From NCBI GenBank assembly GCA_045644345.1, contig JAZRGR010000225.1:15146-79145 (forward strand): DNA of 64,000 nucleotides, written 5' to 3'. Position 1 is the first letter of the stretch. Every line of letters starts with the position of its first letter. This document shows, in pieces, positions 1-44,115 of the stretch. The position numbers and the translations under genes are program-made. A model generated the notes under the pieces. That model worked only from the letters and a program-made list of their open reading frames with translations. It was not told the DNA's origin and made no database searches. This DNA is from Faecousia sp. (GTDB lineage: Bacteria; Bacillota; Clostridia; Oscillospirales; Oscillospiraceae).

Positions 1-2
1 TA

Positions 3-5684: not shown

Positions 5685-5707
5685 GCCGGGCAGAAAGGAG
5701 TGAAGAA

Positions 5708-6106
5708 ATGCTATACTTGAAGCGAATAGACCTTGACCTCCAACCCCACTACGCTATAGAGGCGCCTATCTATGTACGGCGGCAGAGCAACGCTGTGGTA
5801 GTCCGTGTAGACAGCGCTGCTCTGGCACAGGGGGTGGTCAGCCCCGATGGAGGGCAGATCTGGCAGCTTGTGGGCAGAGCCTCTTTAGGCGAGGGGTACC
5901 CTACGGTACAGATCATTACCTGCGCCGAGTATGAACAGTGGCTGTATCAATCGGAGAATGCGCCGGACCCGGAGGATACGGACCCGGCGATTCCCGAGGG
6001 GGTTGATCCTGCAACTATCCTCACCCGTGCGGAACTCACGGAACGGGTGAGCGAATTGGATGAGGCTCTCCACATGCTGTTATCGGGGGTGACGGAGGAT
6101 GAATAA
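5708..6106 (+). CDS. Phage hypothetical protein (tail-associated)
   Basis: RBS GAAAGGAG before ATG 5708 (better than the ORF-track start at 5627). Directly follows the tail gene. Confidence 0.7.
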   Translation: MLYLKRIDLDLQPHYAIEAPIYVRRQSNAVVVRVDSAALAQGVVSPDGGQIWQLVGRASLGEGYPTVQIITCAEYEQWLYQSENAPDPEDTDPAIPEGVDPATILTRAELTERVSELDEALHMLLSGVTEDE

Positions 6107-6287
6107 GGAGCTGAAGGAAAAGATCTTTACCTTTAACCGATTAGCTAAGGAGCGAAGTGAAAAGGCTTCCGATATGGATGTCCTCGTAGCTGAGCTCCTA
6201 CAGCTCCCTCCCGGACAGCTCAAGAAGGTGCTGACGGAGCCTGTTCTGCAGGTACTGGCTAAGTATGGTTACGAGGGAGGAGGTTGA
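6099..6287 (+). CDS. Small phage hypothetical protein (62 aa)
   Basis: GGAGG RBS; overlaps both neighbours, consistent with translational coupling. Confidence 0.7.
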   Translation: MNKELKEKIFTFNRLAKERSEKASDMDVLVAELLQLPPGQLKKVLTEPVLQVLAKYGYEGGG

Positions 6288-6688
6288 TTGACGTGAGCTT
6301 TTTAACAACCTTCCTGTGTGGCGCCGGTGGAGTTGCTTTTGTATCTGGTCTCTTTGCACTGCTGCAATGGTGGCTCAACCGTAGAGCTAAGAAGCAAGAC
6401 AACAGCCAGGCTACCAAGACGGCGAACTGCGAAGCCAGAGGTCAGGAGATCAAAGAGCTGACCCGCATGGTAGAAGTGTTATGCCTTGCGGATCGGACGA
6501 TCCTCTATGACCGAATTAAGCATCTCGGCAAGTCCTACATAGCCAAAAAGTTCATCACCGTGGAGGAGCTTGAGGATCTGGAACGAATGCACAGTGTCTA
6601 CCACGATGAGGACAAGTTGAACGGTAACGGCTTCTTGAAGGAACTTATGGAAGCAGTCAGAGCATTGCCTAAGCGGGTCAATCAGTAA
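6284..6688 (+). CDS. Phage membrane protein of the lysis region (N-terminal TM helix, LNGNG motif)
   Basis: GGAGG RBS; hydrophobic FLCGAGGVAFVSGLFALLQWW; the C-terminal Y..Y...NGNG pattern is typical of proteins next to holins. Confidence 0.65.
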   Translation: MIDVSFLTTFLCGAGGVAFVSGLFALLQWWLNRRAKKQDNSQATKTANCEARGQEIKELTRMVEVLCLADRTILYDRIKHLGKSYIAKKFITVEELEDLERMHSVYHDEDKLNGNGFLKELMEAVRALPKRVNQ

Positions 6689-6804
6689 ACCGCACTGAGC
6701 AATTATATACATAGATGTTCGTTATGCGTGTATTTTGGCACTTTTTATTTGCTAACGTGCATCTTTTGCAAAAATATGAATGATAACAAGGAGGAACAAT
6801 CGAA

Positions 6805-7005
6805 ATGAAGAATTGGAAGATTTGGGCAAAGGCTGCCGGTATTCGTGCCCTTAAGACCTTTGCACAGACCATGGTAGGTGTGATCGGTGCTTCTGCCCTG
6901 ATCACCGAGGTAAATTGGCAGACGGTCCTGTCCTCTGCAGCACTGGCAGCTCTGCTGAGTCTGCTGACCAGCGTGGCAGGTCTGCCGGAAGTAAAGGAGG
7001 AATAA
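6805..7005 (+). CDS. Holin, Dp-1-like family
   Basis: 66 aa, two TM segments, AAGIRALKTFAQT...VNW...LLSLLTSVAGLPEV signature; AAGGAGG RBS. Confidence 0.85.
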   Translation: MKNWKIWAKAAGIRALKTFAQTMVGVIGASALITEVNWQTVLSSAALAALLSLLTSVAGLPEVKEE

Positions 7006-7008
7006 GAC

Positions 7009-7740
7009 ATGAGCAAATATCCTGTTCAGTGTGATGCCCAGATCCGGGCTAAGGAGATCGTCCTCGACTATACGAGAAAGCACCTTGATCCTGCCAGTAA
7101 CATTGAGATCAGCATGGATGATGTGTTTGTCGTGTGGTTCTGCAAGACCCTACACCATGCAAAGGTACTGGTCTCTACCACCCTGCCCGATGGGATGTAC
7201 TACGAAGTTACCTTCAACGGCGTTAAGGGAGAAATCTACCTCGATGCCTATAAGAAGTTCGAGAATGTCTGTATTACTGTGGAGGAGAATCCCAACGATG
7301 AGGGCTACCGTGTGATCTATCCTGACGGATATGTTAGCTGGAGCCCGAAGGAGGTCTTCGAGAACGCATGCCGTGAGATCGGCGAGGTGGATGAACTCAG
7401 AATGCCGTTGCTCACCACCAAGCACACCAGAGTGTTTGTGGAGAGTGAGTTCTCCAACAATGCTCCGCACAACTACTTTGTCGCAAGAGCAGAGGACGGT
7501 CGTGGTCTGTGCCACATCCACTTCCAGGAAGGGCCTATCAAGGAATGCGGTGTCAACGGAGTCTGTGACGAAGATCTGATCAATATGGTCATTGACCGTA
7601 TGGAACATTTTCAGAACAGCCCCTTTGCCTGCCGGGAAAATGCTTTGGCGATTACCGCACTGGAGGAGGCTCTGCTGTGGCTCCGCAAGCGCACCATGGG
7701 CAGAGAACAGCGTGGCGTAGAAGGCACCCACATCGTATAA
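7009..7740 (+). CDS. Multi-domain putative anti-defence protein: DUF6275-like N-domain, YPDGYxSWSPK motif and Tad1-like C-domain
   Basis: The C-terminal ~110 aa (HIHFQEGP...GVCDEDLINMVIDRMEHFQNSPFACRENALAITALEEALLWLRKRTMGREQRGVEGT) match my recollection of the Tad1 pattern FQxG...GV.D.DL...V.DRL..FQ.GPF..REN..A.T..EEAL.W...R...R..R.V.GT. Confidence 0.75.
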   Translation: MSKYPVQCDAQIRAKEIVLDYTRKHLDPASNIEISMDDVFVVWFCKTLHHAKVLVSTTLPDGMYYEVTFNGVKGEIYLDAYKKFENVCITVEENPNDEGYRVIYPDGYVSWSPKEVFENACREIGEVDELRMPLLTTKHTRVFVESEFSNNAPHNYFVARAEDGRGLCHIHFQEGPIKECGVNGVCDEDLINMVIDRMEHFQNSPFACRENALAITALEEALLWLRKRTMGREQRGVEGTHIV

Positions 7741-7753
7741 GGAGGAGTGAGCT

Positions 7754-8551
7754 ATGAGAAAGCTGAAAATTTGCCTTGATCCGGGGCATGACGAGGGCTA
7801 CAATCCTTCACCGTGTGGCTTTGGATATGCAGAGGGTACGCGGATGTTTTTCTTTGCCGGGATGCTTAAGGCGGCACTGGAACAGTACGGTATCGAAGTT
7901 GTAACAACTCGCAGTCGCGTAGAGGCTAACCCCGATCTGCTTCAGCGTGCGCAGTATGGCAAGGACTGCGATTTGCTTCTGAGCCTGCACAGTAACGCCG
8001 TAGGCAATGAGGCAAACGAGAACATAGACTATGTGCGTGTTTACTATCCCATTTCGGGCAAATGCAGGGATCTGGCTTCTTTGCTCTCAAATACGATTGC
8101 TGATGTTATGCAGACGAATCAGAATCCGCAGTATCTGACACGCATCAACAGCACCGGCACAGCAGACTACTACGGCATTATCCGCCATTCGGCGACCCTC
8201 GGCGTGCCTGCACTCATTTTGGAGCATAGCTTCCACACCCACTCGCGTAGCACGCAGTGGCTGATGTCCGATGTAAATCTGTTCGCTTTGGCAAAGGCCG
8301 AGGCAAAGACCATTGCAGACTATTACGGTCTGCAGAAAATAAAAGAGGAGGAAAGCGAAATGCGCTATAACACCCTTGCTGATCTCAAGGCAGACCCCAA
8401 CAGCCGGTTTTATCTGCCCACCGTAGAAAAGCTGATCGAGAAGGGTTATCTGAACGGAAAGGGCGGTACCGGAGAGGATCTGATCCTGGACTTTTCCGAG
8501 GATTCCATCCGCATCCTCGTCACCCTTGACCGGGCTGGGGTTTACGACTAA
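7754..8551 (+). CDS. Endolysin, N-acetylmuramoyl-L-alanine amidase (Amidase_3) with a C-terminal wall-binding domain
   Basis: LDPGH...E, LSLHSNA and ILEHSFH zinc-amidase motifs; downstream of the holin. Confidence 0.9.
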   Translation: MRKLKICLDPGHDEGYNPSPCGFGYAEGTRMFFFAGMLKAALEQYGIEVVTTRSRVEANPDLLQRAQYGKDCDLLLSLHSNAVGNEANENIDYVRVYYPISGKCRDLASLLSNTIADVMQTNQNPQYLTRINSTGTADYYGIIRHSATLGVPALILEHSFHTHSRSTQWLMSDVNLFALAKAEAKTIADYYGLQKIKEEESEMRYNTLADLKADPNSRFYLPTVEKLIEKGYLNGKGGTGEDLILDFSEDSIRILVTLDRAGVYD

Positions 8552-8596
8552 TTAACCATTAAACACCCTATCGAGAATATATCCACATCTATGTTT

Positions 8597-8648
8597 AAAA
8601 GCACTCTCTGCAGGAATTAACTTCTGCGGAGAGTGCTTTTTCTTTTTT
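8597..8648 (+). terminator. Intrinsic terminator after the endolysin
   Basis: AAAAGCACTCTCTGCAG / CTGCGGAGAGTGCTTTT stem followed by a T-run. Confidence 0.8.
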
Positions 8649-8859
8649 GAAAAATGAAAGTAACTGAGGGGGTCTGTGTTGTACACTGAGATAGAACAGT
8701 TAACGACATAGGGTTATACTGTTGCTACCTAAAGAACTCTGTTGAAGAGATAAGAAACTTTGCTGACCTGCTATGAGGACTGATATTTCCATTGCAGTAC
8801 CTTTCGTGTTTTGATATGGAGTTCTCCTGAATTTTTCCAAAGAAGGGAGGAATGTTTCT

Positions 8860-8976
8860 ATGTGGATCTATTCTCGATACATAACAAAGAACGGCAAACG
8901 CATTTATCCGAAAAAAGCTCGTTGTTTCCGATTCTGGGTCGATGACATTAAGGATGTTTCCGGGAAGAGAAAATAA
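8860..8976 (+). CDS. 38-aa basic small protein MWIYSRYITKNGKRIYPKKARCFRFWVDDIKDVSGKRK (not in the ORF track)
   Basis: Strong RBS AAGGGAGG 9 nt before ATG 8860; hairpin CAAAGGGCGA/TCGCCCTTTG (8987-9013) after the stop. Confidence 0.65.
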   Translation: MWIYSRYITKNGKRIYPKKARCFRFWVDDIKDVSGKRK

Positions 8977-9064
8977 TATAGATAAACAAAGGGCGATGTC
9001 AGCTCGCCCTTTGCCTGATATAAGAGGGGAGTCATAAATTTAATGAAATAATAGTCTATTGATA

Positions 9065-9580
9065 TATGGTGGACCGGACGGGGAGCTGGGAGCATCCCTG
9101 CGATATCTCAGCCAGAGATACTCTATGCCATACCCGGAGTTAAAGGGATTACTAACTGATATCGGTGTTGAGGAGCTCGGTCATTTGGAGATGATAGGTT
9201 CCATCGTTCACCAACTGACGAGGAAGCTCACAGACGACCAGCGAAAGGAAGCAGGGTTTGCTCCCTATTTCGTAGATCACACCCAGGGAGTGTATCCCCA
9301 GGCGGCTGCAGGTGTTCCCTGGTCTGCTGCTATGATGCAGGTAAAGGGGGATCCAATTACGGATCTGGCAGAGGATATGGCAGCAGAACAGAAGGCGAGG
9401 ACCACCTATGACAATATTCTGAGACTGTCTGATGATCCCGATGTAAACGATGTGATCAAGTTCCTCCGTGCCAGAGAGGTAGTGCATTTTCAACGCTTCG
9501 GAGAAGCAATGGAAATGCTGAGGGATAAGCTGAATCGTAAGAATATCTACTATATGAACCCTGCGGCAAAGGGATCGTAA
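9065..9580 (+). pseudogene. cotJC: 3' part of spore coat Mn-catalase gene cotJC, 5' end separated by prophage insertion (potentially restorable by excision)
   Basis: YGGPDGELGASLRYLSQRY...DIGVEELGHLEM...GDPITDLAEDMAAEQKAR...REVVHFQRFGE is the Mn-catalase/CotJC signature. It lacks the ~25 N-terminal residues and an RBS, and no cotJB lies upstream. Confidence 0.85.
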
Positions 9581-9668: not shown

Positions 9669-10652
9669 TCATAAGAACTGAGCAAGAAGCTCATCTCGAC
9701 TATAAGGGATAAGATCAGCAGGGGGAATATCCAGCATGGTATAGCATCCTACCTGTCCACGGTCAGCCATGCGTATGGCAGCACGAACACAGGACAGGAG
9801 AACAGAGGCAGTAAACTCCGGATTGGAATCCAGGGACAGGCTGTATTCGATCCGCTGACGATGCTCTCCGTTGAGACCTGTAGCACCTGTACATATAACA
9901 TGACCACCATGGGGCAAGCCACTATGATCTCGCACCAACTCCTCACGAGTAAGGAAGGTTACGGTGGTATCATAATCGGAGAAATAGTTGGGCATAGTCT
10001 TGATCTCCTGCTCGATCCGAGCAAGGTCTGCTCCATCTTCGGCCACAACATAGCAGTGACGGGTGTGCTTCTGTCTGGTGGAGAGGGTAGGGCACTTGCC
10101 GTCACGTACGGCATCCATTGCCTCCTGTACGGGAATCGTGTACTGTCTGCAATCAACAACTCCGGGGATCCGTCGTACAGCATCGGAATGGCCCTGGCTG
10201 ACACCTCGACCCCAGAAGGTATAGGTTGTGCTCTGAGGTAGGACTGCAGAGGCATAGACACGACTGATGGAAAACAGTCCCGGATCCCAGCCGGCAGATA
10301 TTACAGCAACATGCCCGCCGTCCCTTGCCGCACGGTCTACATTACTATAGTGCTGTGGGATCCTTGCATGGGTATCAAAGCTGTCAACTACATGGAAATA
10401 TTGGGCAAGCTCCGGCGTCATAACAGGCAGGTCAGAGGCACTGCCACCGCAGAGGAGAAGAATCTGGATCCGATCTGCCCACTGTCTGATATCGGAATAG
10501 GGAACGACAGGAACATTGGGCGTGGAAATGTGAACGGAACGCGGATCACGCCGAGTAAAGACAGCAACAAGCTCCATTGTGGGATCATGGGCGATGGCGG
10601 ATTCTGCTCCTCTGGCAAGATTCCCGTATCCAACAATGCCGATTTTGATCAT
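9669..10652 (-). CDS. ddh: meso-diaminopimelate D-dehydrogenase
   Basis: IGIVGYGNL Rossmann motif, DSFDTHA, GWDPGLFS, FWGRGVSQGHSDAVRR, PHGGHV, SNPEFTASVL. Confidence 0.95.
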   Translation of the reverse strand: MIKIGIVGYGNLARGAESAIAHDPTMELVAVFTRRDPRSVHISTPNVPVVPYSDIRQWADRIQILLLCGGSASDLPVMTPELAQYFHVVDSFDTHARIPQHYSNVDRAARDGGHVAVISAGWDPGLFSISRVYASAVLPQSTTYTFWGRGVSQGHSDAVRRIPGVVDCRQYTIPVQEAMDAVRDGKCPTLSTRQKHTRHCYVVAEDGADLARIEQEIKTMPNYFSDYDTTVTFLTREELVRDHSGLPHGGHVICTGATGLNGEHRQRIEYSLSLDSNPEFTASVLLSCVRAAIRMADRGQVGCYTMLDIPPADLIPYSRDELLAQFL

Positions 10653-10860
10653 GATGTTTTATTCCTCCGGATAATAGATTTTGGGCAATATAGAGTGAGA
10701 TGCTATATTTTAAACTTATCATAATTACAACAAAATGTCAACAAAAACAGAAGAAAATTGTAATAATTTCGTGATTGTAAATAAATATCACTCGTATTCA
10801 ATTATGAATTTGTCGAAAACCAAAAAATACGAATTACAGCAGAAAAAGCAAAAATAATGC

Positions 10861-10889
10861 TTGCAAATTCTGCGGGAATGAGCTATAAT
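10861..10889 (+). promoter_or_regulatory. Sigma-A promoter upstream of the putative RiPP precursor
   Basis: TTGCAA-N17-TATAAT. Confidence 0.75.
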
Positions 10890-11019
10890 CTGTTTGATAC
10901 CATGATGGTATAATGACGTGGTGTTGCCCATAGTCCGATTAGGTATATGATCGTCAGATTTGTCTTGGGTCTATAGTTGTGCGGTGAATTCCGTGGCTCA
11001 AGAAGAGAGGATGCGTAAC

Positions 11020-11298
11020 ATGAAGAGACCTTATTTCCGTCCGATGATGGCTTTTGAATCTTATCAGCTTGATGCGGCGATTGCCATCAAATGCGATGTT
11101 CCCATTGGCAATACTACTTTTGAGTGCAGTGTAGATCTTAGCGCCAATGGCAAATATGGTTACGGTGGCGGCGGTGAGTTCTTTAATTATACCAATTGTC
11201 AGACGGATTTGGTTGGGGATGGCCCCAATAACGAGTCTGTATGTTATCATGGGCCCCATTCTACCTTTAATATTTATGAAATTTTCCTGAATTCTTGA
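11020..11298 (+). CDS. Putative radical-SAM-modified peptide precursor (92 aa, YxxP leader, 4 Cys)
   Basis: RBS AGAGAGG 9 nt before ATG 11020. Leader MKRPYFRPMMAFESYQL, then a Gly/Asn/aromatic-rich core ending CYHGP...FLNS. Adjacent to an rSAM/SPASM gene. Confidence 0.65.
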   Translation: MKRPYFRPMMAFESYQLDAAIAIKCDVPIGNTTFECSVDLSANGKYGYGGGGEFFNYTNCQTDLVGDGPNNESVCYHGPHSTFNIYEIFLNS

Positions 11299-11330
11299 TT
11301 TTTATTCGGGATTTCCATATGGTTTTATTT

Positions 11331-11370
11331 AAACTGCTGCAAGGATGGGGATCATTTGCAGCAGTTTTTT
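11331..11370 (+). terminator. Intrinsic terminator between the precursor and the rSAM gene
   Basis: AAACTGCTGCAA / TTGCAGCAGTTT stem plus T-run. Confidence 0.75.
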
Positions 11371-11467
11371 AATACCGACTATAGAACATTCTCCATACAT
11401 TATGGAATATAGAGCGCATTATTGAACTTATGTATCGGCATTATGAGATTAGGAGGGAAATATATCG

Positions 11468-12550
11468 GTGAAACAGGATTACCCGATCAAACAGAGTGTA
11501 TGCAAGAGAGCCGCAACCAAGAATATCCCTGTTTGCGGAACATTTGAATTAACACCAAGATGCTCTTTGAACTGCAAGATGTGTTATATCCGTATGACTC
11601 CCGAACAGATGAAGCCCCTTGGATCGGAGCTGAGTGTTGATCGGTGGATCAAGTTGGCACAGGAAGCACGGGACATGGGCTTGACATTCCTGCTCCTTAC
11701 AGGAGGGGAACCCTTCCTCAGACAGGATATCTATGAGCTGCTGTCTGCACTCAATGCTATGGGAATTATAGTGGATATCAATAGCAATGGTACGCTGATC
11801 AACGAGGCTGTTATAGATAAACTCAAGTTGACCCCTCCATCTAAGATTAACATTACTCTGTATGGTGCCTCACGAGAGACTTACAGAGCATTGTGTGGGG
11901 ATGGAGATGCCTTTGACCGTGTGGTTCGCGGGATCGATCTGCTACGGGAAGCAGGATTTCTTGTGTGCTTAAATGCAACATTAACACCTGAAAATGTACA
12001 TGAATTGGAAGCACTGACCCAATTTGCCCAGAGTCGGGGATTGGTTCTGCGTACTACGGGATATGTGATGCCTCCCAGCCGTAGAGGAGCTCTGGAGCAG
12101 GCTTACAGACTCCCTGCAAAGGAAGCCGGAGAGAAAGCTTTCCAATCACAGCTCCTGTTCAACGGGGAGGAAGAAATGAGAAGCCGTGCCCTAAAGCAAC
12201 TGGCATGGGAGGATTGCTATCACGAGACAGAGGATGGAATCCATTGCCTTGCAGGACGGTCTCAATTCTGGGTCAGTTGGAACGGCAAGGTTCTTCCCTG
12301 CGGTATGCTTCCGGAGATCAGCGTCGATGTTGCAGTAACGGGGTTCCGAGGAGCATGGGAACAGATCAATAGGACGGTACGTCATTTGCCTGCAAGCAAG
12401 GAATGCGGCACCTGCCCTCACAGAAGGATATGTCCCAGCTGTGCCGCATCTCGATACTGCGAAAGTGGGGATGTTAGGACTCCGTCTGCATATATGTGCG
12501 AATTTACCAAGGCGTACCAGGCATCAATGGATCAGCTCGTAGCAGAGTAA
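11468..12550 (+). CDS. Radical SAM enzyme with SPASM domain (peptide maturase-like)
   Basis: CSLNCKMC (CxxxCxxC), LTGGEP, and C-terminal CLAG...PC...CGTC....CPSCAASRYC...C. Confidence 0.9.
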   Translation: MKQDYPIKQSVCKRAATKNIPVCGTFELTPRCSLNCKMCYIRMTPEQMKPLGSELSVDRWIKLAQEARDMGLTFLLLTGGEPFLRQDIYELLSALNAMGIIVDINSNGTLINEAVIDKLKLTPPSKINITLYGASRETYRALCGDGDAFDRVVRGIDLLREAGFLVCLNATLTPENVHELEALTQFAQSRGLVLRTTGYVMPPSRRGALEQAYRLPAKEAGEKAFQSQLLFNGEEEMRSRALKQLAWEDCYHETEDGIHCLAGRSQFWVSWNGKVLPCGMLPEISVDVAVTGFRGAWEQINRTVRHLPASKECGTCPHRRICPSCAASRYCESGDVRTPSAYMCEFTKAYQASMDQLVAE

Positions 12551-12600
12551 TATGTCTCTGCGGGTATAGATATTCGATTTGCTATTAACAGTGCAAAAAC

Positions 12601-12644
12601 AAAAGGACCGCTGTCACAGGGTTTAGGCTGTGACAGCGGTTTTT
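12601..12644. terminator. Bidirectional terminator between convergent genes
   Basis: ACCGCTGTCACAG / CTGTGACAGCGGT stem flanked by A-run and T-run. Confidence 0.8.
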
Positions 12645-12649
12645 GCAAT

Positions 12650-15600
12650 TTATGGTGTGAAATAGTTTTTGGCGGCATCGGAATATGCCATGAGTGCCCT
12701 GCAGAGGTCTCCTAAGGCACCGGTTTTGTGATTGCCGTAGGTGTCAGGGCTGTACAGTAGGGTAGAGGATACAGGGGTATTGCCTACATAGATCTGCGCA
12801 GAAATCACTGCCCTTAGCTCCGCAGCAAGGAGAGTATCCAGTGTAAAGACGTATACACCCAGATCGGGGTTGTATAGCTCGGCATTTTCGATCCGGTAAG
12901 TCTTAGTGTTGCCATATATGTCTTCATAGGAGATATGCAGTGAGAGTGCGGACGGGTCTGCAGCATAATTCCCGGGATGGAAGACAAATTTCAGTGCTAC
13001 TTTAGACTCTAAATTCAAGGATTTCCCTGCCCATGTGACAGGCGGATTCTCCAAATCATTTAGCACTGTATTGGTATTGCCGAATACCACTTCCTCCGGA
13101 TCGGACAGGTAAGAGCGGTGAACCGAGGTCATGGCATAGTCAACAAGACTATCGGTGCGGTAGGACTTGAAAATCTGCGCCTTGGAGCCATAGCGGAGCA
13201 ATTCGGCACATAGAACTTTGAGAGCGACGGTAGAGCCATCTTTATCTAACTGTGAGTAGGCATAATCAGCAATGCTATAATCATCAATAGGGGAATAGTA
13301 GGGCTGACCATCTTTGGTCCCGTACAGGACGGAACGGAAACGGTCGTTCATTTGCACAGCCGTCAAACCGTTAAGGGTAAAATAGTAGTAATATCCTTGA
13401 TCGACGGGGAGCAGCTTGACGGTACGGGTGCCGATTTTCTCACTACCCTCATAAATGTCCAGCTCTGTGAGGACGTATACGGTACTCATATCATAGCCCT
13501 CTAAGAGACTCTTGCTGACTGCAAAATTTACAGAGATATCGCTGGCCAGATTCAGCGTGTGGTTGAGTTTTAGAGCAGTGTTTTCCATGGGTTCCTTAAC
13601 GTCATTCTGACCGCAGAGGCAGAGTCCGTCTATAAAGCTGTGAGACTCTTCTGCGCTGAAACCGCAGTGACAGAATTTTTGGTGACTGCTACCCTCTAAG
13701 GCTTCATAGGAGAAGCTGTGCGCCTCTGCTGTAAACAGAGGATGAAGAGTCGCTCCCGTAAACAGGGAACTCAGATCAACAAGCTGATCGTTCTGATCCG
13801 CCCAGCCGTGGAAGTTGTAGTGCATAGTTTCGTCTCCGGGTTTTACAGGGAGGGCACCCCTATAGACGGCTGAGGTGTTTCGATCCACAGAGCATCGCTC
13901 TAACACGGATCCACCCTCTGTAACGAAGGTTACGGAACCAATGGTGGGATTCTTCTCGGCAGGTCCGATGTAGATGTAATCAATGAGGAATTCTGCGGTT
14001 TTGCCGGATGCGTTCTTCATGTTTAAGAACTGAGGATGAACCAGATTGATCCAATCGGATGCGAGATATTCTGCATCCGTCAATTTGGTCTCAAGAATGA
14101 ACCAGCCCTTGTCTACATAGTCTGCAAGATTGAAGTCTATGGGAATATTAGTCCAAGTGCGGCTTGTGCCTGCGTTATTGACTAAAGTGTTACTGCGATC
14201 CAAATTCATGCGGAAGGTGACTATGCCGTTGTCTGTAGAAGCTACTGCATTTTTGATCCGGATGCGAACTTGGAGAATGTCATTCTTGCCGGGAACGAAG
14301 TGCATAGCACTGACATTATCCCTACGGTTACGGATGGAGTGACTTGTATCTGTGTTTCCGGTGGGGACGGCTAACTTTAGAGCACCGTCAGCAATGGTAG
14401 ACATGGGAGAGCCATTATATACGACCCAGTTAGAGGGATCGTCGAAGTTCAAGTGGTTGTAGGTGAAGTTGTTATAACGGTCCCGATCTTCGGCTGTGTT
14501 CGTAAAGTCAAAGAACAGGGTGTCGTCTTGTTTGGGGAAGGTCTCCTGAGGTCCAATGTAAATGTAGTCAATGGAGAAGACAGCAGTAGCGCCGCTTGCA
14601 GACTTCAGATTGACGAACTGAGGATGAACCAGGTTCATGAATTCAAACTTGTTATACTCTGCAGTGTTTAGAGGGAAGGAGAGGGTCACATAGCCCTTGC
14701 CAACCACATCGGCGACCTTAAAACTCTTTTCGAAACGGGTATAGGTCTTAGTGACATCTGCGGCATCGTTGAGATCGTTGGGACAGTCTACATCCAGACG
14801 GAATTTTGCTGTACCATCAGTGGTAGAAGCTACAGCATTATCGATCTTGAAGCGAACTTGGCAGTAGTCTGTGGATTTGGTGAAATAATGGAGGGGACGA
14901 TACGCCCACTGGCCCTTGGAGTTATTCAGGGGACGACTGTAAACACCTACAGAGGTAATGGTTCCGTCGATGGGAGAGAAACTGAGAACGCCGCGGCTGA
15001 TGGCACTTGCGGTGGTGTTAGCTTCATGATCCCAGTTCTCTTTCCGGTCGAAATTGATGCCACCGTATACAAAGCTGTGATACCGCTCCTGTGCCACGGA
15101 CTCATTGTTGAAGTCGAACATTAGATATGGATCGGATTGACTTTTATAGTTGGGGGCGGTTAGATTGGGGGTAGTTGTGGTTTTCAGTAGTTTCTTTGCG
15201 GCAGAGACACTTTCGATTTTAATGGTATTTGTCCCCAATGTGACGAATGAACCGCTGTATTTGTATGCTGCGTTATCTACATCACAGGAAATCAGCGTGG
15301 GGAAATTGGGATTGCTCACCTGACCACTTGCATTTGCGGTATGGAGGGTGTGGGTATAATTGTGACCGGAGAACATGAGGCTGATCCCCATTTGGTTAAG
15401 GATCCTCGTCCATTGCGCATAATCTTCCTGAATACCGGCTGTGGTGACTCGGGTCATGGGAATATGGCAGAAAGCGATTCTTGTCGGGTAATCCTTCCAT
15501 TTCCCTTGGGCGAGGACTTCCTCCAGCCACCGGGTTTGCTCCTTGCGAAGGTTCTGGTAATCTGTGGTGCCACCGTATTCGGCATGGCTGTCGATCTTAT

Positions 15601-17554
15601 CCTCACCGGAATCCAGCACGATTGCAAAGAAATCCGGTTGCTCGACTGTGTAATAGCTCTTGCCTGTTGTGCTTGTAGGCGCAATGGAGTCCAGCAGGTA
15701 GGAATAGTTGCCACGAATCTCACGGTTTCCTCTTGTGAAGATCACAGGCTTCGTGCCTGTGGTAATGGCACTTGCAGTATCTAAGAGAAGCTTTACATTG
15801 GATTCGGTATTGCCGTTATAGGCATAGTCTCCACCAACATATAGGGCATCGAAGGTCTTGTATCCGGCAACAGCCTTGGCTTCGGCAGCAAGTCCACGGA
15901 AATCGGACAGACAGAGGATCACGGGCTCTTTCTTATCCCCCATTGGAGTAAAGGGATAGGTGCGGCTTACGGTACTGCCGTGAGTGGGATTGTAGGCGGC
16001 ACGAGTTGACATGGATTGGAAGCTGACAGAATAGCTACGGGCGGAATCCAAAGCAACCCGAGGGATACGGATGCTGTGATACTTGGTTTCCCAATCCATA
16101 AGCCCTGTGGTTTGATCATAGTATTTCTTGCCGCCTACTGTTGCCCATGCCATGCCTGTGGTATCAGTGGTGAAGATGATCTGATATCCGTCTTCCACAG
16201 CAAAAACCGTGGGATGTAGAGTATAGGGAGATGAGATGGAAGGTACGGAGGCTCGTGTAGCAGGGGAAACGGTGATTTCTGTATCTTCTGCGGTGGATAG
16301 ACGGGCTACAAGTCCGCCGGCCTCGTTTACATACGCATTGGTGAAAATGGGGATCTTCTTGGTAGCCTTTACGCTCAGTGTATCTGTGATGTTTTCGAGC
16401 TCGTAGCTATCGGTTCCAACCGTGACAAAGGTACTGCTATATGTGGCGTTGGTATTCTCTCGGTCGGATACGACTACGACGGTATAGTTGGGATCGGCAA
16501 GGTGCTTGGTATGGTCTGGTCCGTATACACCATACCGGTGGGTATGCCCTGCAATGTGAATGCTAACACCCATTTGATCCAACAGCTCAGTCCATTCCTT
16601 GTATACAGATTCAAAATCTTCCTTGGCATAGAAGCTGAAAGGCACATGGGCGAAGACCATTCGTACGGGGTATTTCTCCCATTCGCGGGAGGCTACTACC
16701 TGGCGCAGCCATTGGGTCTGTTCGTTGCGGTAGGTGGAGAACTGAACAGTACCACCGTATTCGGCATGGCTGTCTACCTTGTCCTCACCGGCATCCAGGA
16801 CGAGACCGAAGATCCCGGGCATTTTCACCGTGTAATAAGCACCGGTTTTCTCGCTGTAGCCGGAGACACGGTACAGATTATGAGATTGGGAACCGCGGAC
16901 CTCGTGATTGCCACGGGAGTAAATGGTAGGCTTACGACCTTGGGTCACTGCACCCGCCATGTCCAGATGGAGTTTGATGTAGGTATCCTCTGTCAACTTG
17001 CCGGCGTAATCGCCCCCCAACACATAGACATCAAAATCCTTGTACTTGGAGATCTTTAAGGTAGGATCCTTGTCGTTGTGCTGGTCCGAGCTACAATAGA
17101 ATACAGGAGGTCTGTCAGCAGGGATCGGATCAAAGGGATATGTGCGGCTGACAGTGGAACCGGGAGCGGGAGAAGTGGTGGGGCGTGCGGAAAGGGAACG
17201 GAAGCAGATCGTGTAGGTGCCTGCCGCATCTAAGGCGGTCTGCGGAACTGTGATCTTATGATATTTGCTCTTCCAGTTCATGAGACCGTTTTGAGAGTCG
17301 TTGTATTTGACTCCGCCGATCTCAACCCATGCCAAGCCGTTGGCATTGGTAGCAAAGGCGATCTGATAGGTGTCCTCCACAATGAATACCACGGGATGTG
17401 TGGTGAATGGGGAAGAAATGGCGGGAACGGATACTGCGGCAGGAGTCATCTCTTGCTCTGTGGTTTTTGCCCCAAAGGCAACGGGGGGAACAAGGGATAG
17501 AAGTAGTGCAAGGATCAGGGGGAACAACAGAATGCGAAGGGGTTGTTTACGCAT
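12650..17554 (-). CDS. Secreted multidomain metallophosphoesterase: two purple-acid-phosphatase-like units (second degenerate), two repeat modules, B-repeat, Cys/His linker and shared C-terminal module
   Basis: Signal peptide ending VAFG-A; first domain SSDQH, GGDY, RGNHE, AGHTH; second domain SDFR, GNRE, GHNY. Confidence 0.8.
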   Translation of the reverse strand: MRKQPLRILLFPLILALLLSLVPPVAFGAKTTEQEMTPAAVSVPAISSPFTTHPVVFIVEDTYQIAFATNANGLAWVEIGGVKYNDSQNGLMNWKSKYHKITVPQTALDAAGTYTICFRSLSARPTTSPAPGSTVSRTYPFDPIPADRPPVFYCSSDQHNDKDPTLKISKYKDFDVYVLGGDYAGKLTEDTYIKLHLDMAGAVTQGRKPTIYSRGNHEVRGSQSHNLYRVSGYSEKTGAYYTVKMPGIFGLVLDAGEDKVDSHAEYGGTVQFSTYRNEQTQWLRQVVASREWEKYPVRMVFAHVPFSFYAKEDFESVYKEWTELLDQMGVSIHIAGHTHRYGVYGPDHTKHLADPNYTVVVVSDRENTNATYSSTFVTVGTDSYELENITDTLSVKATKKIPIFTNAYVNEAGGLVARLSTAEDTEITVSPATRASVPSISSPYTLHPTVFAVEDGYQIIFTTDTTGMAWATVGGKKYYDQTTGLMDWETKYHSIRIPRVALDSARSYSVSFQSMSTRAAYNPTHGSTVSRTYPFTPMGDKKEPVILCLSDFRGLAAEAKAVAGYKTFDALYVGGDYAYNGNTESNVKLLLDTASAITTGTKPVIFTRGNREIRGNYSYLLDSIAPTSTTGKSYYTVEQPDFFAIVLDSGEDKIDSHAEYGGTTDYQNLRKEQTRWLEEVLAQGKWKDYPTRIAFCHIPMTRVTTAGIQEDYAQWTRILNQMGISLMFSGHNYTHTLHTANASGQVSNPNFPTLISCDVDNAAYKYSGSFVTLGTNTIKIESVSAAKKLLKTTTTPNLTAPNYKSQSDPYLMFDFNNESVAQERYHSFVYGGINFDRKENWDHEANTTASAISRGVLSFSPIDGTITSVGVYSRPLNNSKGQWAYRPLHYFTKSTDYCQVRFKIDNAVASTTDGTAKFRLDVDCPNDLNDAADVTKTYTRFEKSFKVADVVGKGYVTLSFPLNTAEYNKFEFMNLVHPQFVNLKSASGATAVFSIDYIYIGPQETFPKQDDTLFFDFTNTAEDRDRYNNFTYNHLNFDDPSNWVVYNGSPMSTIADGALKLAVPTGNTDTSHSIRNRRDNVSAMHFVPGKNDILQVRIRIKNAVASTDNGIVTFRMNLDRSNTLVNNAGTSRTWTNIPIDFNLADYVDKGWFILETKLTDAEYLASDWINLVHPQFLNMKNASGKTAEFLIDYIYIGPAEKNPTIGSVTFVTEGGSVLERCSVDRNTSAVYRGALPVKPGDETMHYNFHGWADQNDQLVDLSSLFTGATLHPLFTAEAHSFSYEALEGSSHQKFCHCGFSAEESHSFIDGLCLCGQNDVKEPMENTALKLNHTLNLASDISVNFAVSKSLLEGYDMSTVYVLTELDIYEGSEKIGTRTVKLLPVDQGYYYYFTLNGLTAVQMNDRFRSVLYGTKDGQPYYSPIDDYSIADYAYSQLDKDGSTVALKVLCAELLRYGSKAQIFKSYRTDSLVDYAMTSVHRSYLSDPEEVVFGNTNTVLNDLENPPVTWAGKSLNLESKVALKFVFHPGNYAADPSALSLHISYEDIYGNTKTYRIENAELYNPDLGVYVFTLDTLLAAELRAVISAQIYVGNTPVSSTLLYSPDTYGNHKTGALGDLCRALMAYSDAAKNYFTP

Positions 17555-37924: not shown

Positions 37925-37970
37925 AAAATACCGCTGTATGGAGAGGAAACCCGTACAGTGGTATTTTTTT
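37925..37970 (+). terminator. Terminator of the maltodextrin operon
   Basis: AAAATACCGCTGTATGG / CCGTACAGTGGTATTTT stem (with G-U pairs) plus T-run. Confidence 0.75.
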
Positions 37971-37980
37971 GTATTTCTGT

Positions 37981-38009
37981 TTGACAAAAACTCTATTATG
38001 GGTTAAACT
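37981..38009 (+). promoter_or_regulatory. Sigma-A promoter of the triple-glycosidase gene
   Basis: TTGACA-N17-TAAACT. Confidence 0.75.
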
Positions 38010-38106
38010 AGATAATGGATTTATTTGCACTGTATCTTTTCGTTCCCATGCCCATGGGGAACGTAATGATAAACAAAATCCTTATGGAAAGAAAAGGAGA
38101 AACACT

Positions 38107-44016: not shown

Positions 44017-44115
44017 GTCTCGGATACTCTGATTGAACGAAAACAAGGGGGCTGTCATTTTGACAGTCCCCGAATCTTATTTTTGAGTATGCAACGGGAT
44101 TTTTTTAACTTCCCG

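What the first reader, a model, noticed from the sequence alone, without database searches (positions are those of the whole stretch)
11020..12550. Orphan RiPP-like pair: YxxP-leader Cys peptide plus radical SAM/SPASM enzyme, with no RRE, protease or exporter nearby
Seen: near-consensus promoter, a 92-aa peptide (leader MKRPYFRPMMAFESYQLDAAIA; core with Cys in KCD, ECS, NCQ and VCYHGP, a GYGGGG tract and C-terminal FLNS), a terminator, then the rSAM/SPASM gene. Known: YxxP leaders are bound by RRE/PqqD domains, and SPASM enzymes install thioether or C-C crosslinks; a terminator after the precursor gives high precursor:enzyme ratios. Seen: this rSAM has only ~20 residues before the SAM motif region, so no fused RRE. 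Inference: an uncharacterised RiPP class with an unusually long core, needing accessory genes in trans.
Basis: partly seen in the sequence, partly recalled or inferred. Interest (0 to 1): 0.7.

Follow-up and report, generated by a model that had tools for sequence, protein, structure and literature searches.

The report
Stripped-down radical-SAM peptide-maturation gene pair
A small cysteine-containing peptide gene and a radical-SAM enzyme gene in a cattle-gut bacterium are the two-gene remnant of a widespread, unstudied four-gene cassette for making a modified peptide, having lost the leader-binding helper and the kinase that its relatives keep.

Summary
In detail: promoter, 92-aa peptide gene (11020-11298), intrinsic-terminator hairpin (11331-11371) and a 360-aa radical SAM/SPASM gene (11468-12550) that has no room for an RRE.

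The peptide is a real gene (dN/dS about 0.06). It belongs to a large unannotated family: 985 representative clusters, no Pfam or NCBIfam model. Shared features are an N-terminal YxxP motif, usually four Cys, a C-Y-H motif and a C-terminal Ser.

Among 80 genomic loci with homologous rSAMs (Oscillospiraceae, Faecousia and Ruminococcus gut MAGs), 63 carry such a peptide. About 45 have the order standalone PqqD/RRE, peptide, HprK/ScmC-like P-loop kinase, rSAM. More distant clusters add an archaeal-type signal-peptidase-like protease and an ABC exporter, like the LPP clusters described in 2026.

The window's clade is monophyletic, nested within this family, and has lost the PqqD and the kinase. No copy of either lies in the 64 kb.

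The RiPP reading is therefore supported. Whether helpers act in trans cannot be decided here. One related lineage keeps the peptide intact while its rSAM has decayed. The chemistry is inferred only; Cys-derived thioether cross-links are the most likely.

Verdict: new variant of a known kind, moderately interesting.

The parts
10861..10889 (+). Sigma-70-type promoter, TTGCAA-17 nt-TATAAT. A second, extended -10 (TGgTATAAT) lies at 10906-10914.
   Evidence: Best site in the scan at 10/12 matches. The -35 and -10 block is conserved in orthologous loci L001 and L003 within otherwise diverged sequence.
11004..11011 (+). Ribosome-binding site (AGAGAGGA) of the peptide gene
   Evidence: Read directly from the sequence. 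AAGAGGAG is conserved in L001 and L003.
11020..11298 (+). Precursor peptide gene, 92 aa. The putative leader is about residues 1-22/24 (MKRPYFRPMMAFESYQLDAAIA, with Y5xxP8). The core is about residues 25-92, with C25, C36, C60, C75-Y-H, a Gly tract and a C-terminal Ser92.
   Evidence: ORF and translation. 18 close homologues with invariant Y5, P8, four Cys and S92. dN/dS 0.06. Family-wide invariants Y5, P8, C25, C60 and C75. 985 representative clusters. No Pfam or NCBIfam model.
11331..11371 (+). Intrinsic-terminator-like hairpin (12-bp stem, 13-nt loop, U tract) between the precursor and enzyme genes. Probably a leaky attenuator that sets an excess of precursor over enzyme.
   Evidence: The 105-nt stretch 11296-11400 that contains it folds to an MFE of -30 kcal/mol, z = -4.5. 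An equivalent hairpin plus T tract of different sequence follows the stop codon in L001, L003, L007, L009, L010 and L011. Function is inferred, since no RNA data were available.
11452..11457 (+). Ribosome-binding site (AGGAGG) of the rSAM gene
   Evidence: Read directly from the sequence; it lies 10 nt before the GTG at 11468.
11468..12550 (+). Radical SAM/SPASM enzyme, 360 aa, with no N-terminal RRE. Cluster motif C32xxxC36xxC39 and GGEP at 79-82. Auxiliary-cluster Cys at C250, C260, C278, C313, C316, C322, C325 and C344.
   Evidence: Pfam Radical_SAM 99 bits; SPASM 16.8 bits, below its gathering score. The best NCBIfam hit, AhbD, scores 144 bits against a cut-off of 500, so no curated family applies. 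Invariant Cys in 30 homologues. The best solved structures by sequence are SkfB and PqqE. AF2 pLDDT 88; Foldseek finds SkfB, SuiB, PqqE and anSME at TM 0.56-0.69. dN/dS against L001 is about 0.08.
12607..12640 (.). 13-bp GC-rich hairpin between the convergent rSAM gene and the giant Metallophos gene. Probably a bidirectional terminator that ends the two-gene unit.
   Evidence: Terminator scan; reported on the - strand, with T/A tracts on both sides.

Best explanation
The 92-aa ORF is a ribosomal precursor peptide and the 360-aa radical SAM/SPASM protein is its maturase.

Shown:
- The two genes are linked across different genomic contexts.
- Both are under strong purifying selection.
- The peptide belongs to a large family that sits beside homologous rSAMs.
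- In most relatives the cassette also encodes a standalone PqqD-type RRE upstream of the peptide, and an HprK/ScmC-like P-loop kinase between peptide and rSAM.
- In the most distant relatives it further encodes an archaeal-type signal-peptidase-like protease and an MsbA-like exporter.
- The window's clade is a monophyletic, derived lineage that kept only the peptide and the rSAM.

Inferred:
- Residues 1 to about 22 are a leader whose invariant Y5xxP8 motif is the docking site normally read by the PqqD RRE.
- The core (about residues 25-92) is cross-linked by the rSAM, which uses 5'-deoxyadenosyl radical chemistry and two auxiliary Fe-S clusters.
- The most likely product carries thioether bridges from the conserved Cys (C25, C36, C60, C75) to acceptor carbons, as in sacti- and ranthipeptides.
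- In relatives, the kinase probably phosphorylates the near-universal C-terminal Ser, as HprK-like kinases do on paeninodin-type lasso precursors.
- In this clade the enzyme either binds the leader directly or borrows an RRE encoded elsewhere.
- A conserved promoter, together with a conserved leaky terminator between the genes, gives more precursor than enzyme.
For: Linkage:
- Peptide plus rSAM occur together in the window, L001, L007, L009, L010 and L011, and L007 has unrelated flanks.
- A family peptide was found in 63 of the 80 loci with rSAM homologues: 56 by profile and 7 by hand.

Ancestral cassette:
- PqqD is confirmed by Pfam PF05402, E 1e-14 to 1e-17.
- Protein X matches HprK_rel_B in 17 of 24 members, HprK_rel_A in 16 of 24 and ScmC in 12 of 24, with a best E of 8e-10. 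Its motif LHSS-x-V-x3-GK-x-VLF-x-G-x-SG-x-GKSTQA follows the HprK P-loop pattern. A precomputed Pfam hit, PF27840 ScmC, is recorded for the L089 copy.
- The SpI-like peptidase matches TIGR02228 at 8.7e-9, and ABC exporters are present in L083-L087.

Phylogeny: the reduced clade is monophyletic and nested among X- and PqqD-bearing clades. The sister clade shows intermediate states.

Leader:
- Y5 and P8 are invariant in 47 diverse members, and [YW]xxP occurs in 96% of 247 members.
- [Y/W]xxPx[LVIFA] is the published motif bound by discrete lasso-type RREs (PMC13381572).

C-terminal Ser:
- 92% of 247 members end in Ser.
- HprK homologues phosphorylate the C-terminal Ser of lasso precursors (PMC8498205).

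Enzyme:
- All cluster Cys are conserved.
- The nearest solved relatives by sequence and by fold are peptide-modifying SPASM enzymes: SkfB (thioether), PqqE, SuiB and anSME.
- The peptide model has pLDDT 38, meaning no confident autonomous fold, as expected for a precursor.

Selection: the peptide has omega 0.06 and the rSAM about 0.08.

Expression signals are conserved.
Against: - No chemistry has been observed for any member of this family. The thioether assignment rests on conserved Cys and on SkfB being the nearest structure. Conserved aromatic residues (F54, Y76, H77) would equally allow C-C or C-O cross-links.
- The window has no RRE, kinase, leader peptidase or exporter, so a secreted mature product is not accounted for.
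- In L003, L005 and L006 the rSAM is a decayed remnant: the N-terminal 230 residues are deleted, there is a frameshift, a ligand Cys is lost, and dN is 0.32 against 0.16 for the intact orthologue. The peptide there is intact and not accelerated. The peptide can therefore persist without its cis enzyme.
- The Pfam SPASM score is below its gathering score.
- The low-confidence peptide model may simply reflect a shallow alignment (19 sequences).
- About 15 of the 80 rSAM loci show no peptide within 4 kb, some because of contig ends.
- The NJ tree has no support values.
Confidence: 0.72

Rival explanations
1. Trans-dependence. The pair is not self-sufficient. A PqqD-type RRE, and perhaps the HprK-like kinase, a peptidase and an exporter, are encoded elsewhere in the genome, for example in a second, complete cassette, and they serve this precursor.
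For: Y5xxP8 and the C-terminal Ser stay invariant in the reduced clade although their presumed readers are absent nearby. There is a precedent in MAG JAFTIZ01, which carries a full cassette (L025) and also a degenerate one with no PqqD and only a remnant of X (L028). Canonical cassettes are common in other Faecousia MAGs. The L003 lineage keeps the peptide without a cis rSAM, which a trans-acting paralogue would explain.
Against: The genome scan returned no second locus from the four assemblies that hold the reduced pair (JAZNYV01, JAZMZW01, JAGBGB01, JAFOZC01). That scan was pattern-based and MAGs are incomplete. The peptides of this clade have diverged from canonical ones (about 25-30% identity, CYHGP instead of CYHT, an added Gly tract). 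A foreign RRE or kinase would have to tolerate that divergence. Published work shows that RREs discriminate closely related YxxP and WxxP leaders (PMC13381572).
Confidence: 0.35
2. Same pair, different chemistry. The rSAM does not make thioethers. It cross-links or modifies conserved aromatic or aliphatic residues (F54, Y76, H77), as StrB/SuiB, PqqE, triceptide or darobactin-type enzymes do. The four Cys then form disulfides or bind metal.
For: F54 and Y76 are nearly invariant and C-Y-H is a family signature. PqqE (Glu-Tyr C-C bond) and SuiB (Lys-Trp bond) match the enzyme as well as SkfB does, by sequence and by fold. Exactly four Cys in 84% of members would also suit two disulfides.
Against: Three Cys are the only fully invariant core residues across 47 diverse members. 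Short-core relatives (L083-L087) are Cys-rich and lack the CYH motif and the GxF aromatic residue. This makes Cys the common denominator of the rSAM substrate.
Confidence: 0.3
3. A relic in decay. After losing the RRE and the kinase, the cassette no longer makes the ancestral product. The peptide has a function that does not require the rSAM, for example as a small Cys/His protein, and the rSAM is on its way out.
For: The L003, L005 and L006 lineage has an intact, constrained peptide with an rSAM pseudogene. No processing or export genes are present.
Against: In the window, L001, L007 and L009-L011 the rSAM is full length. All cluster ligands are present and omega is about 0.08 over saturated dS. 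The intergenic terminator and the operon layout are maintained across the clade. The peptide shows no confident autonomous fold.
Confidence: 0.12
4. Coincidental neighbours. The rSAM is a housekeeping AhbD/NirJ-like or MoaA-like enzyme unrelated to the small ORF.
For: The top NCBIfam hits are AhbD (144 bits) and NirJ2 (114 bits).
Against: These scores are far below the curated cut-off of 500, and no haem-pathway genes are nearby. The homologues sit next to PqqD and family peptides in dozens of genomes. Linkage holds across unrelated flanks.
Confidence: 0.03

Closest known systems
Sactipeptide and ranthipeptide systems (SkfA/SkfB, subtilosin AlbA, ruminococcin C, PapB/CteB)
   Same: A ribosomal Cys-containing precursor lies next to a radical SAM/SPASM enzyme. 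SkfB is the nearest solved structure by sequence (E 1e-12) and by fold. In nisin-type operons (own knowledge) a leaky terminator likewise sits between precursor and enzyme.
   Different: Those maturases carry a fused N-terminal RRE; this one has none. In relatives of this enzyme the RRE is a separate PqqD. The core is about twice as long (about 65-70 aa). All sacti and ranthi NCBIfam models score far below their cut-offs. The precursor family is unrelated and unannotated.
Linear polyphosphorylated peptides (LPP) and paeninodin-type lasso peptide clusters (Popov et al. 2026, PMC13381572; Zhu et al. 2016 as reviewed in PMC8498205)
   Same: In relatives of this locus: a discrete lasso-B1-like PqqD RRE, a leader with [Y/W]xxPx[hydrophobic], an HprK-like kinase, an archaeal-type SpI-like peptidase and an MsbA-like exporter. 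The terminal Ser recalls the C-terminal Ser phosphorylated in paeninodin.
   Different: LPP and lasso clusters have no radical SAM enzyme; the LPP paper never mentions one. The LPP leader consensus YxxPxVLxHQxIxFETxxS is matched only in its YxxPx[V] part. No NTP-transferase, cyclase or B2 protease is present. The window itself has none of the shared genes, only the leader motif and the terminal Ser.
SynChlorMet cassette (NCBIfam ScmC, ScmD, ScmE, ScmF) and the HprK-related-kinase/PqqD systems defined by NCBIfam
   Same: The same gene types are combined: an HprK-like P-loop protein (ScmC), a PqqD relative (ScmD) and rSAM/SPASM enzymes (ScmE, ScmF). X proteins hit ScmC down to 8e-10, and an outgroup rSAM hits ScmE at 97 bits.
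   Different: All hits are far below the curated cut-offs (125-400 bits), so these are relatives, not members. There is one rSAM rather than two. The taxa differ (gut Clostridia). As far as I know, the SynChlorMet function is itself uncharacterised.
PqqE/PqqD/PqqA and MftC/MftB/MftA (cofactor-forming rSAM/SPASM enzymes with a standalone RRE)
   Same: An rSAM/SPASM of about 360 aa without a fused RRE works, in relatives, with a separate PqqD-family chaperone on a small precursor. PqqE is a top hit by sequence and by fold.
   Different: The precursor is much longer and Cys-based. No cofactor-dependent dehydrogenases or other pathway genes are nearby. NCBIfam PqqE and MftC scores (87 and 102 bits) are below their cut-offs.

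Membership tests
Radical SAM superfamily | CxxxCxxC cluster motif and a Pfam PF04055 score above gathering | tested here: met
   C32/C36/C39 are invariant in 30 homologues. PF04055 scores 99.3 bits against a gathering score of 29.5.
SPASM subfamily | C-terminal 7-Cys motif (Cx9-15Gx4C ... Cx2Cx5Cx3C ... C) that binds two auxiliary [4Fe-4S] clusters | tested here: inconclusive
   The Cys pattern is present and conserved: C260-x12-G-x4-C278, C313x2C316x5C322x2C325, C344, plus C250. Spacing deviates slightly (x17 and x2). Pfam SPASM scores 16.8 bits, below its 21.5 gathering score. The AF2 model aligns over its full length with the SPASM enzymes anSME, SuiB and PqqE at TM 0.60-0.69. Cluster binding was not tested.
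RiPP biosynthetic system | A short precursor gene genetically linked to its modifying enzyme across genomes | tested here: met
   Peptide plus rSAM occur in 7 loci of this clade, including unrelated flanks. A family peptide lies beside the rSAM homologue in 63 of 80 loci.
RiPP biosynthetic system | A leader recognised by an RRE | tested here: inconclusive
   The leader motif Y5xxP8 is invariant. No RRE is fused to the enzyme or present in the 64-kb window. A standalone PqqD is adjacent in about 50 related loci. Binding was not tested.
RiPP biosynthetic system | A post-translational modification of the core is demonstrated | not testable with these tools
   This needs expression and mass spectrometry.
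Sactipeptide/ranthipeptide maturases | Match to curated maturase models (AlbA, SkfB, StsB, PapB) and a fused N-terminal RRE | tested here: not met
   The window rSAM scores 56-82 bits against AlbA, SkfB and StsB, whose cut-offs are 300-850. PapB scores 53 bits against 340 for the relative L086. Only 31 residues precede the cluster motif, so there is no RRE.
LPP family (Popov et al. 2026) | Core genes: SpI-like peptidase, discrete RRE, HprK-like kinase, MsbA-like exporter (and NTP-transferase) | tested here: not met
   None of these is in the window. They are present, without the NTP-transferase and with an added rSAM, in the distant relatives L084, L086 and L087.
LPP family (Popov et al. 2026) | Leader consensus YxxPxVLxHQxIxFETxxS | tested here: not met
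   Only YxxPx[hydrophobic] is shared. The family consensus here is KxYxKPxxAVExYxLxQxIAxC.
SynChlorMet cassette | NCBIfam equivalog scores for ScmC, ScmD, ScmE and ScmF above their cut-offs | tested here: not met
   The window rSAM scores 75-79 bits against ScmE/F, whose cut-off is 400. X proteins of relatives match ScmC at best E 8e-10, far below its curated cut-off of 125 bits.
AhbD / NirJ haem-pathway rSAM enzymes | NCBIfam equivalog score of at least 500, with haem-pathway gene context | tested here: not met
   144 and 114 bits. The neighbours are DAP dehydrogenase, a Mn-catalase-like gene and giant Metallophos surface proteins.

The most novel reading that the evidence does not exclude
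The peptide family (about 1000 representative clusters, no database model) defines a new RiPP class. In it, the lasso/LPP-type recruitment module (YxxP leader, B1-like PqqD, HprK-like kinase acting on a terminal Ser) is coupled to radical SAM/SPASM cross-linking of an unusually long core of about 65 residues with four Cys. The window's clade would be a natural experiment showing that the rSAM step can run without an RRE or the kinase.
Probability: 0.35. Interest if true: 0.75.

Novelty: new variant of a known kind. Interest (0 to 1): 0.58.

Why it matters
If the reading is right, gut and rumen Oscillospiraceae carry a large family of radical-SAM-modified peptides or mini-proteins that has no database model and that I found described nowhere in the literature searched. 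Its leader-recognition and kinase parts are shared with lasso peptides and with the recently described LPPs.

That would link three RiPP classes through a common recruitment module, and it would give a new substrate class for SPASM enzymes: cores about twice the usual length.

The two-gene form in this window is the simplest system to reconstitute, with one peptide and one enzyme. It also asks directly whether an enzyme whose relatives use a separate RRE can recognise its leader alone.

The products are candidates for bacteriocins or signals in a livestock gut community. The frequent placement of the cassette beside large surface proteins and a conserved lipoprotein leaves the biological role open.

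Tried and rejected
- Curated models for the peptide: no Pfam or NCBIfam hit, even at E <= 1.
- Rfam scan of 10600-12700, looking for a riboswitch or leader RNA in the 125-nt 5' UTR: only sub-threshold chance hairpin hits.
- RNA-seq evidence for terminator read-through: no RNA run holds the locus. Only bovine and other gut DNA metagenomes do.
- AF2 of the peptide: pLDDT 38, so it was not usable for a fold search.
- Profile of protein X against PDB sequences: nothing significant. HprK and PEPCK appear only at E about 0.2-0.6. The HprK/ScmC assignment therefore rests on NCBIfam hits, the motif, and one precomputed Pfam ScmC hit.
- Motif search for a hidden precursor in the 15 rSAM loci without a profile hit: none found. 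Several of these loci are cut by contig ends.
- Literature: five searches aimed at this system (rSAM, PqqD, HprK-like kinase and ScmC terms) found no description of it. One of them was wasted on an ambiguous acronym.
- Haem-synthase (AhbD/NirJ) reading of the rSAM: rejected on score and context.
- Cofactor-precursor reading (PQQ- or mycofactocin-like): considered and set aside, because no dependent dehydrogenases are nearby and because the substrates are Cys-based.
- Testing for a trans-encoded PqqD in the source genome: not possible.
Full report
**1. What is in the sequence**

The features described are all present.

- A 92-aa ORF runs from ATG 11020 to the stop at 11298, with a GAGAGGA ribosome-binding site 8 nt upstream.
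- Upstream, TTGCAA-17 nt-TATAAT at 10861-10889 is the best promoter-like site in the region, matching 10 of 12 positions.
- Thirty-three bases after the stop codon lies a 12-bp stem with a 13-nt loop and a U tract (11331-11371). The simple scan missed it because its loop limit is 8 nt. The 105-nt stretch 11296-11400 that contains it folds to an MFE of -30 kcal/mol, 4.5 sd below shuffles.
- A GTG at 11468, preceded by AGGAGG, opens a 360-aa ORF ending at 12550.
- A 13-bp GC-rich hairpin at 12607-12640 separates that ORF from a convergent 1634-aa gene.

**2. The enzyme**

The 360-aa protein is a radical SAM enzyme. Pfam PF04055 scores 99 bits, and the cluster motif is C32xxxC36xxC39.

The Pfam SPASM model scores below its gathering score (16.8 against 21.5 bits). 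Other evidence still points to a SPASM domain:

- The Cys array C250, C260-x12-G-x4-C278, C313-x2-C316-x5-C322-x2-C325 and C344 is conserved in 30 homologues spanning 42-84% identity (C250 in at least 90%, the rest invariant).
- The AlphaFold model is confident (pLDDT 88, pTM 0.88).
- Its best structural matches are peptide- or protein-modifying SPASM enzymes: SkfB, SuiB, PqqE and anSME, at TM 0.56-0.69.
- By sequence, the nearest solved structures are SkfB and PqqE.

No curated NCBIfam family claims the protein. The best hit, AhbD, scores 144 bits against a cut-off of 500.

Only 31 residues precede the cluster motif: one helix, then the first barrel strand.

**3. The peptide is a real, conserved gene in a large unannotated family**

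A word-indexed search found 18 close homologues at 50-86% identity. They share invariant K2, Y5, P8, the block FES-QLDAA-A, four Cys, and a C-terminal Ser.

Against orthologues with saturated synonymous divergence (dS about 1.6), dN/dS is 0.06. The rSAM shows about 0.08.

A profile of the wider family, run exhaustively against 1.84 billion representative proteins, finds 985 clusters at E <= 1e-3 and 87 at E <= 1e-10. Almost all are full-length proteins of 75-100 aa.

Among the 247 retrieved members of 135 aa or less:

| Feature | Share of members |
|---|---|
| End in Ser | 92% |
| [Y/W]xxP near the N-terminus | 96% |
| Exactly four Cys | 84% |
| C-[Y/F]-H within the last 30 residues | 69% |

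None carries a Pfam domain or any name other than 'hypothetical protein'. The AF2 model of the peptide is of very low confidence (pLDDT 38). This is what one expects of an unstructured precursor, although the alignment is shallow.

**4. Genomic context in relatives**

A scan of one genome per species with the rSAM alignment returned 80 loci. Nearly all come from gut or rumen MAGs of Oscillospiraceae, Faecousia, Ruminococcus and other Clostridia. The window itself is found in bovine gut metagenomes, and its closest genome is a Faecousia MAG (80% rSAM identity).

Local profiles show that 56 of these loci carry a family peptide. Inspection by hand adds seven more short-core precursors.

The commonest arrangement, in about 45 loci, has four genes in this order:

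1. A standalone PqqD (Pfam PF05402, E 1e-14 to 1e-17; its best NCBIfam matches are the lasso-peptide B1-type chaperones).
2. The peptide.
3. A P-loop protein of about 290 aa, here called X.
4. The rSAM.

X matches the NCBIfam models HprK-related kinase B (17 of 24 members), HprK-related kinase A (16 of 24) and SynChlorMet ScmC (12 of 24, best E 8e-10), all below their cut-offs. Its conserved block LHSS-x-V-x3-GK-x-VLF-x-G-x-SG-x-GKSTQA...NGDR follows the HprK P-loop pattern. One copy has a precomputed hit to Pfam PF27840 (ScmC).

The most distant loci (L083-L087; Bacillota, Anaerocolumna, Caldiserica) share the core order rSAM, short precursor, X. PqqD lies upstream of the rSAM in three of them (L084, L086, L087), and an S24/S26-type peptidase and an ABC exporter follow X in the same three. 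The precursors there are 50-65 aa, with a YxKPT...ELRxEERLA leader, a Cys-rich core and a terminal Ser. The peptidase's best match is the archaeal-type signal peptidase I (TIGR02228, 8.7e-9).

**5. The window's pair is a derived reduction**

In a neighbour-joining tree of 70 rSAM homologues, the loci that have only the peptide and the rSAM form one clade. These are the window, L001, L007, L009, L010 and L011. The clade is nested among clades that carry X and PqqD. The tree has no support values.

The sister group shows intermediate states. L089 has peptide, ScmC-like X and rSAM without an adjacent PqqD. L088 has only peptide and rSAM.

Within the 64-kb window, no ORF of at least 40 aa matches the profiles for PqqD, X, the SpI-like peptidase, the ABC exporter or the lipoprotein that accompanies 30 canonical cassettes.

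Only the peptide and the rSAM are consistently linked. L007 has entirely different flanks. The shared DAP-dehydrogenase neighbour in the other loci is ordinary synteny.

**6. Expression signals are conserved as features**

The -35 and -10 block is conserved in L001 and L003 within sequence that is otherwise about 69% identical.

Every locus of the reduced clade has a strong GC-rich hairpin plus T tract just after the peptide stop codon, with different stem sequences in each. In canonical cassettes the peptide abuts or overlaps X, so there is no room for a hairpin.

A partial terminator that gives an excess of precursor over enzyme is therefore a reasonable inference. No RNA run covers the locus, so I could not check it.

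**7. A complication**

In one related lineage (L003, L005, L006; JGI metagenomes) the rSAM is a pseudogene:

- The segment equivalent to window 11370-12160 is deleted.
- The remaining 131 codons are split by a frameshift and have lost a ligand Cys.
- They differ from the window at dN 0.32, against 0.16 for the intact orthologue over the same codons.

The peptide in that lineage is intact, and its dN (0.08-0.09) is no higher than between lineages with intact enzymes. The peptide can therefore persist without its cis enzyme. It is either served by a paralogue elsewhere or has some enzyme-independent value. A precedent for trans service exists: one MAG carries both a complete cassette (L025) and a degenerate one (L028).

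**8. Mechanism**

Shown:

- Linkage of the two genes.
- Purifying selection on both.
- The family context, with an RRE, a kinase-like protein and, at greater distance, a protease and an exporter.
- An intact set of Fe-S ligands in the enzyme.

Inferred:

- Residues 1 to about 22 form a leader. Its Y5xxP8-x-hydrophobic motif corresponds to the [Y/W]xxPx[L/V/I/F/A] motif bound by discrete lasso-type RREs (PMC13381572).
- The rSAM cross-links the core. I favour thioether bridges from Cys for three reasons. Three Cys (C25, C60, C75) are the only core residues invariant across 47 diverse members. The short-core relatives keep Cys but lack the CYH and aromatic motifs. SkfB is the nearest structure.
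- C-C or C-O chemistry on F54, Y76 or H77 remains a serious alternative.
- In relatives, the HprK-like protein probably phosphorylates the near-universal C-terminal Ser, as shown for paeninodin-type lasso precursors (PMC8498205). In LPPs the related kinase instead polyphosphorylates Ser3 of the core (PMC13381572).
- In the window's clade the enzyme must either bind the leader itself or use a trans-encoded RRE. The invariance of Y5, P8 and S92 in this clade shows that something still reads them.

**9. Comparison with what is known**

The system works like a sacti- or ranthipeptide or another SPASM RiPP system, but it fails membership of every curated maturase family tested.

Its accessory module in relatives (B1-like PqqD, YxxP leader, HprK-like kinase, SpI-like peptidase, MsbA-like exporter) matches the LPP clusters reported in May 2026 and the paeninodin-type lasso clusters. 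Those clusters have no radical SAM enzyme; the LPP paper never mentions one. The LPP leader consensus is shared only in its YxxPxV part.

NCBIfam's SynChlorMet cassette combines the same gene types, but all scores are far below its cut-offs.

Five literature searches aimed at the rSAM, PqqD, HprK-like kinase and ScmC combination found no description of this family. The library lacks most subscription journals, so this is not proof of absence.

**10. Verdict**

- The RiPP interpretation is supported and sharpened: this is a two-gene, reduced member of a large uncharacterised cassette family.
- The 'accessory genes in trans' claim is undecided.
- The chemistry is unknown.
- I rate it a new variant of a known kind, with interest of about 0.58. 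It is not categorically new. Its value lies in the size of the unannotated family, the link to lasso and LPP recruitment machinery, and the experimentally convenient minimal form.

Noticed in passing
window 1-9580: A phage-like block abuts a Mn-catalase/CotJC-like ORF. The block contains a giant ORF at 39-5684, a DUF6275 plus Acb2/Tad1-hairpin protein at 7009-7740, and an Amidase_3 endolysin at 7754-8551. The CotJC-like ORF (9059-9580) lacks its N-terminal part, matching profile positions 28-197 of 284. At the same place in L001 the gene is called as a 684-aa fusion of Resolvase, Recombinase, Zn_ribbon_recom and Mn_catalase. This looks like a prophage or 'skin'-like element inserted into a cotJC-like gene by a large serine recombinase.
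   Followed up: partly
window 12650-17554 and 17606-22870 (- strand): Two tandem giant paralogous secreted proteins (1634 and 1754 aa), each with Metallophos domains. L001 and L003 have only one copy at this position.
   Followed up: no
window 37969-44058: Two overlapping giant ORFs lie on opposite strands: 2015 aa on the + strand and 1968 aa on the - strand. One is presumably a shadow ORF of the other. Such a long stop-free antisense frame is unusual.
   Followed up: no
L003 6436-6930 (also L005, L006): An rSAM pseudogene sits next to an intact peptide gene. The N-terminal 230 codons are deleted, there is a frameshift and a ligand Cys is lost. The same structure is seen in three metagenome samples.
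   Followed up: yes
L013-L064, about 30 loci, e.g. L020 1567-2280 (-): A conserved lipoprotein of about 240 aa, with no Pfam hit, is transcribed divergently from the PqqD gene in 30 canonical cassettes. It could be an immunity or receptor component. It is absent from the window.
   Followed up: partly
L049, L056, L063, L065, L067-L069, L071, L073, L075 and others: In about 15 loci a secreted GH20 hexosaminidase of about 850 aa is inserted between the peptide (with or without X) and the rSAM. Many other cassettes directly follow large surface proteins (pilin-like, PA14, SLH/polysaccharide deacetylase) or precede a CotH-dockerin protein. This recurrent association with cell-surface enzymes is unexplained.
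   Followed up: partly
L025 and L028 (same MAG, JAFTIZ01): One genome carries both a complete cassette and a second copy that has a peptide and an rSAM, only an 84-aa remnant of X, and no PqqD. This is a possible case of trans-complementation between paralogous cassettes.
   Followed up: partly
L024, L031, L034, L060, L066: These loci have PqqD, X and rSAM, but no recognisable precursor within 4 kb. The precursor may lie elsewhere or may have diverged beyond the profile.
   Followed up: partly
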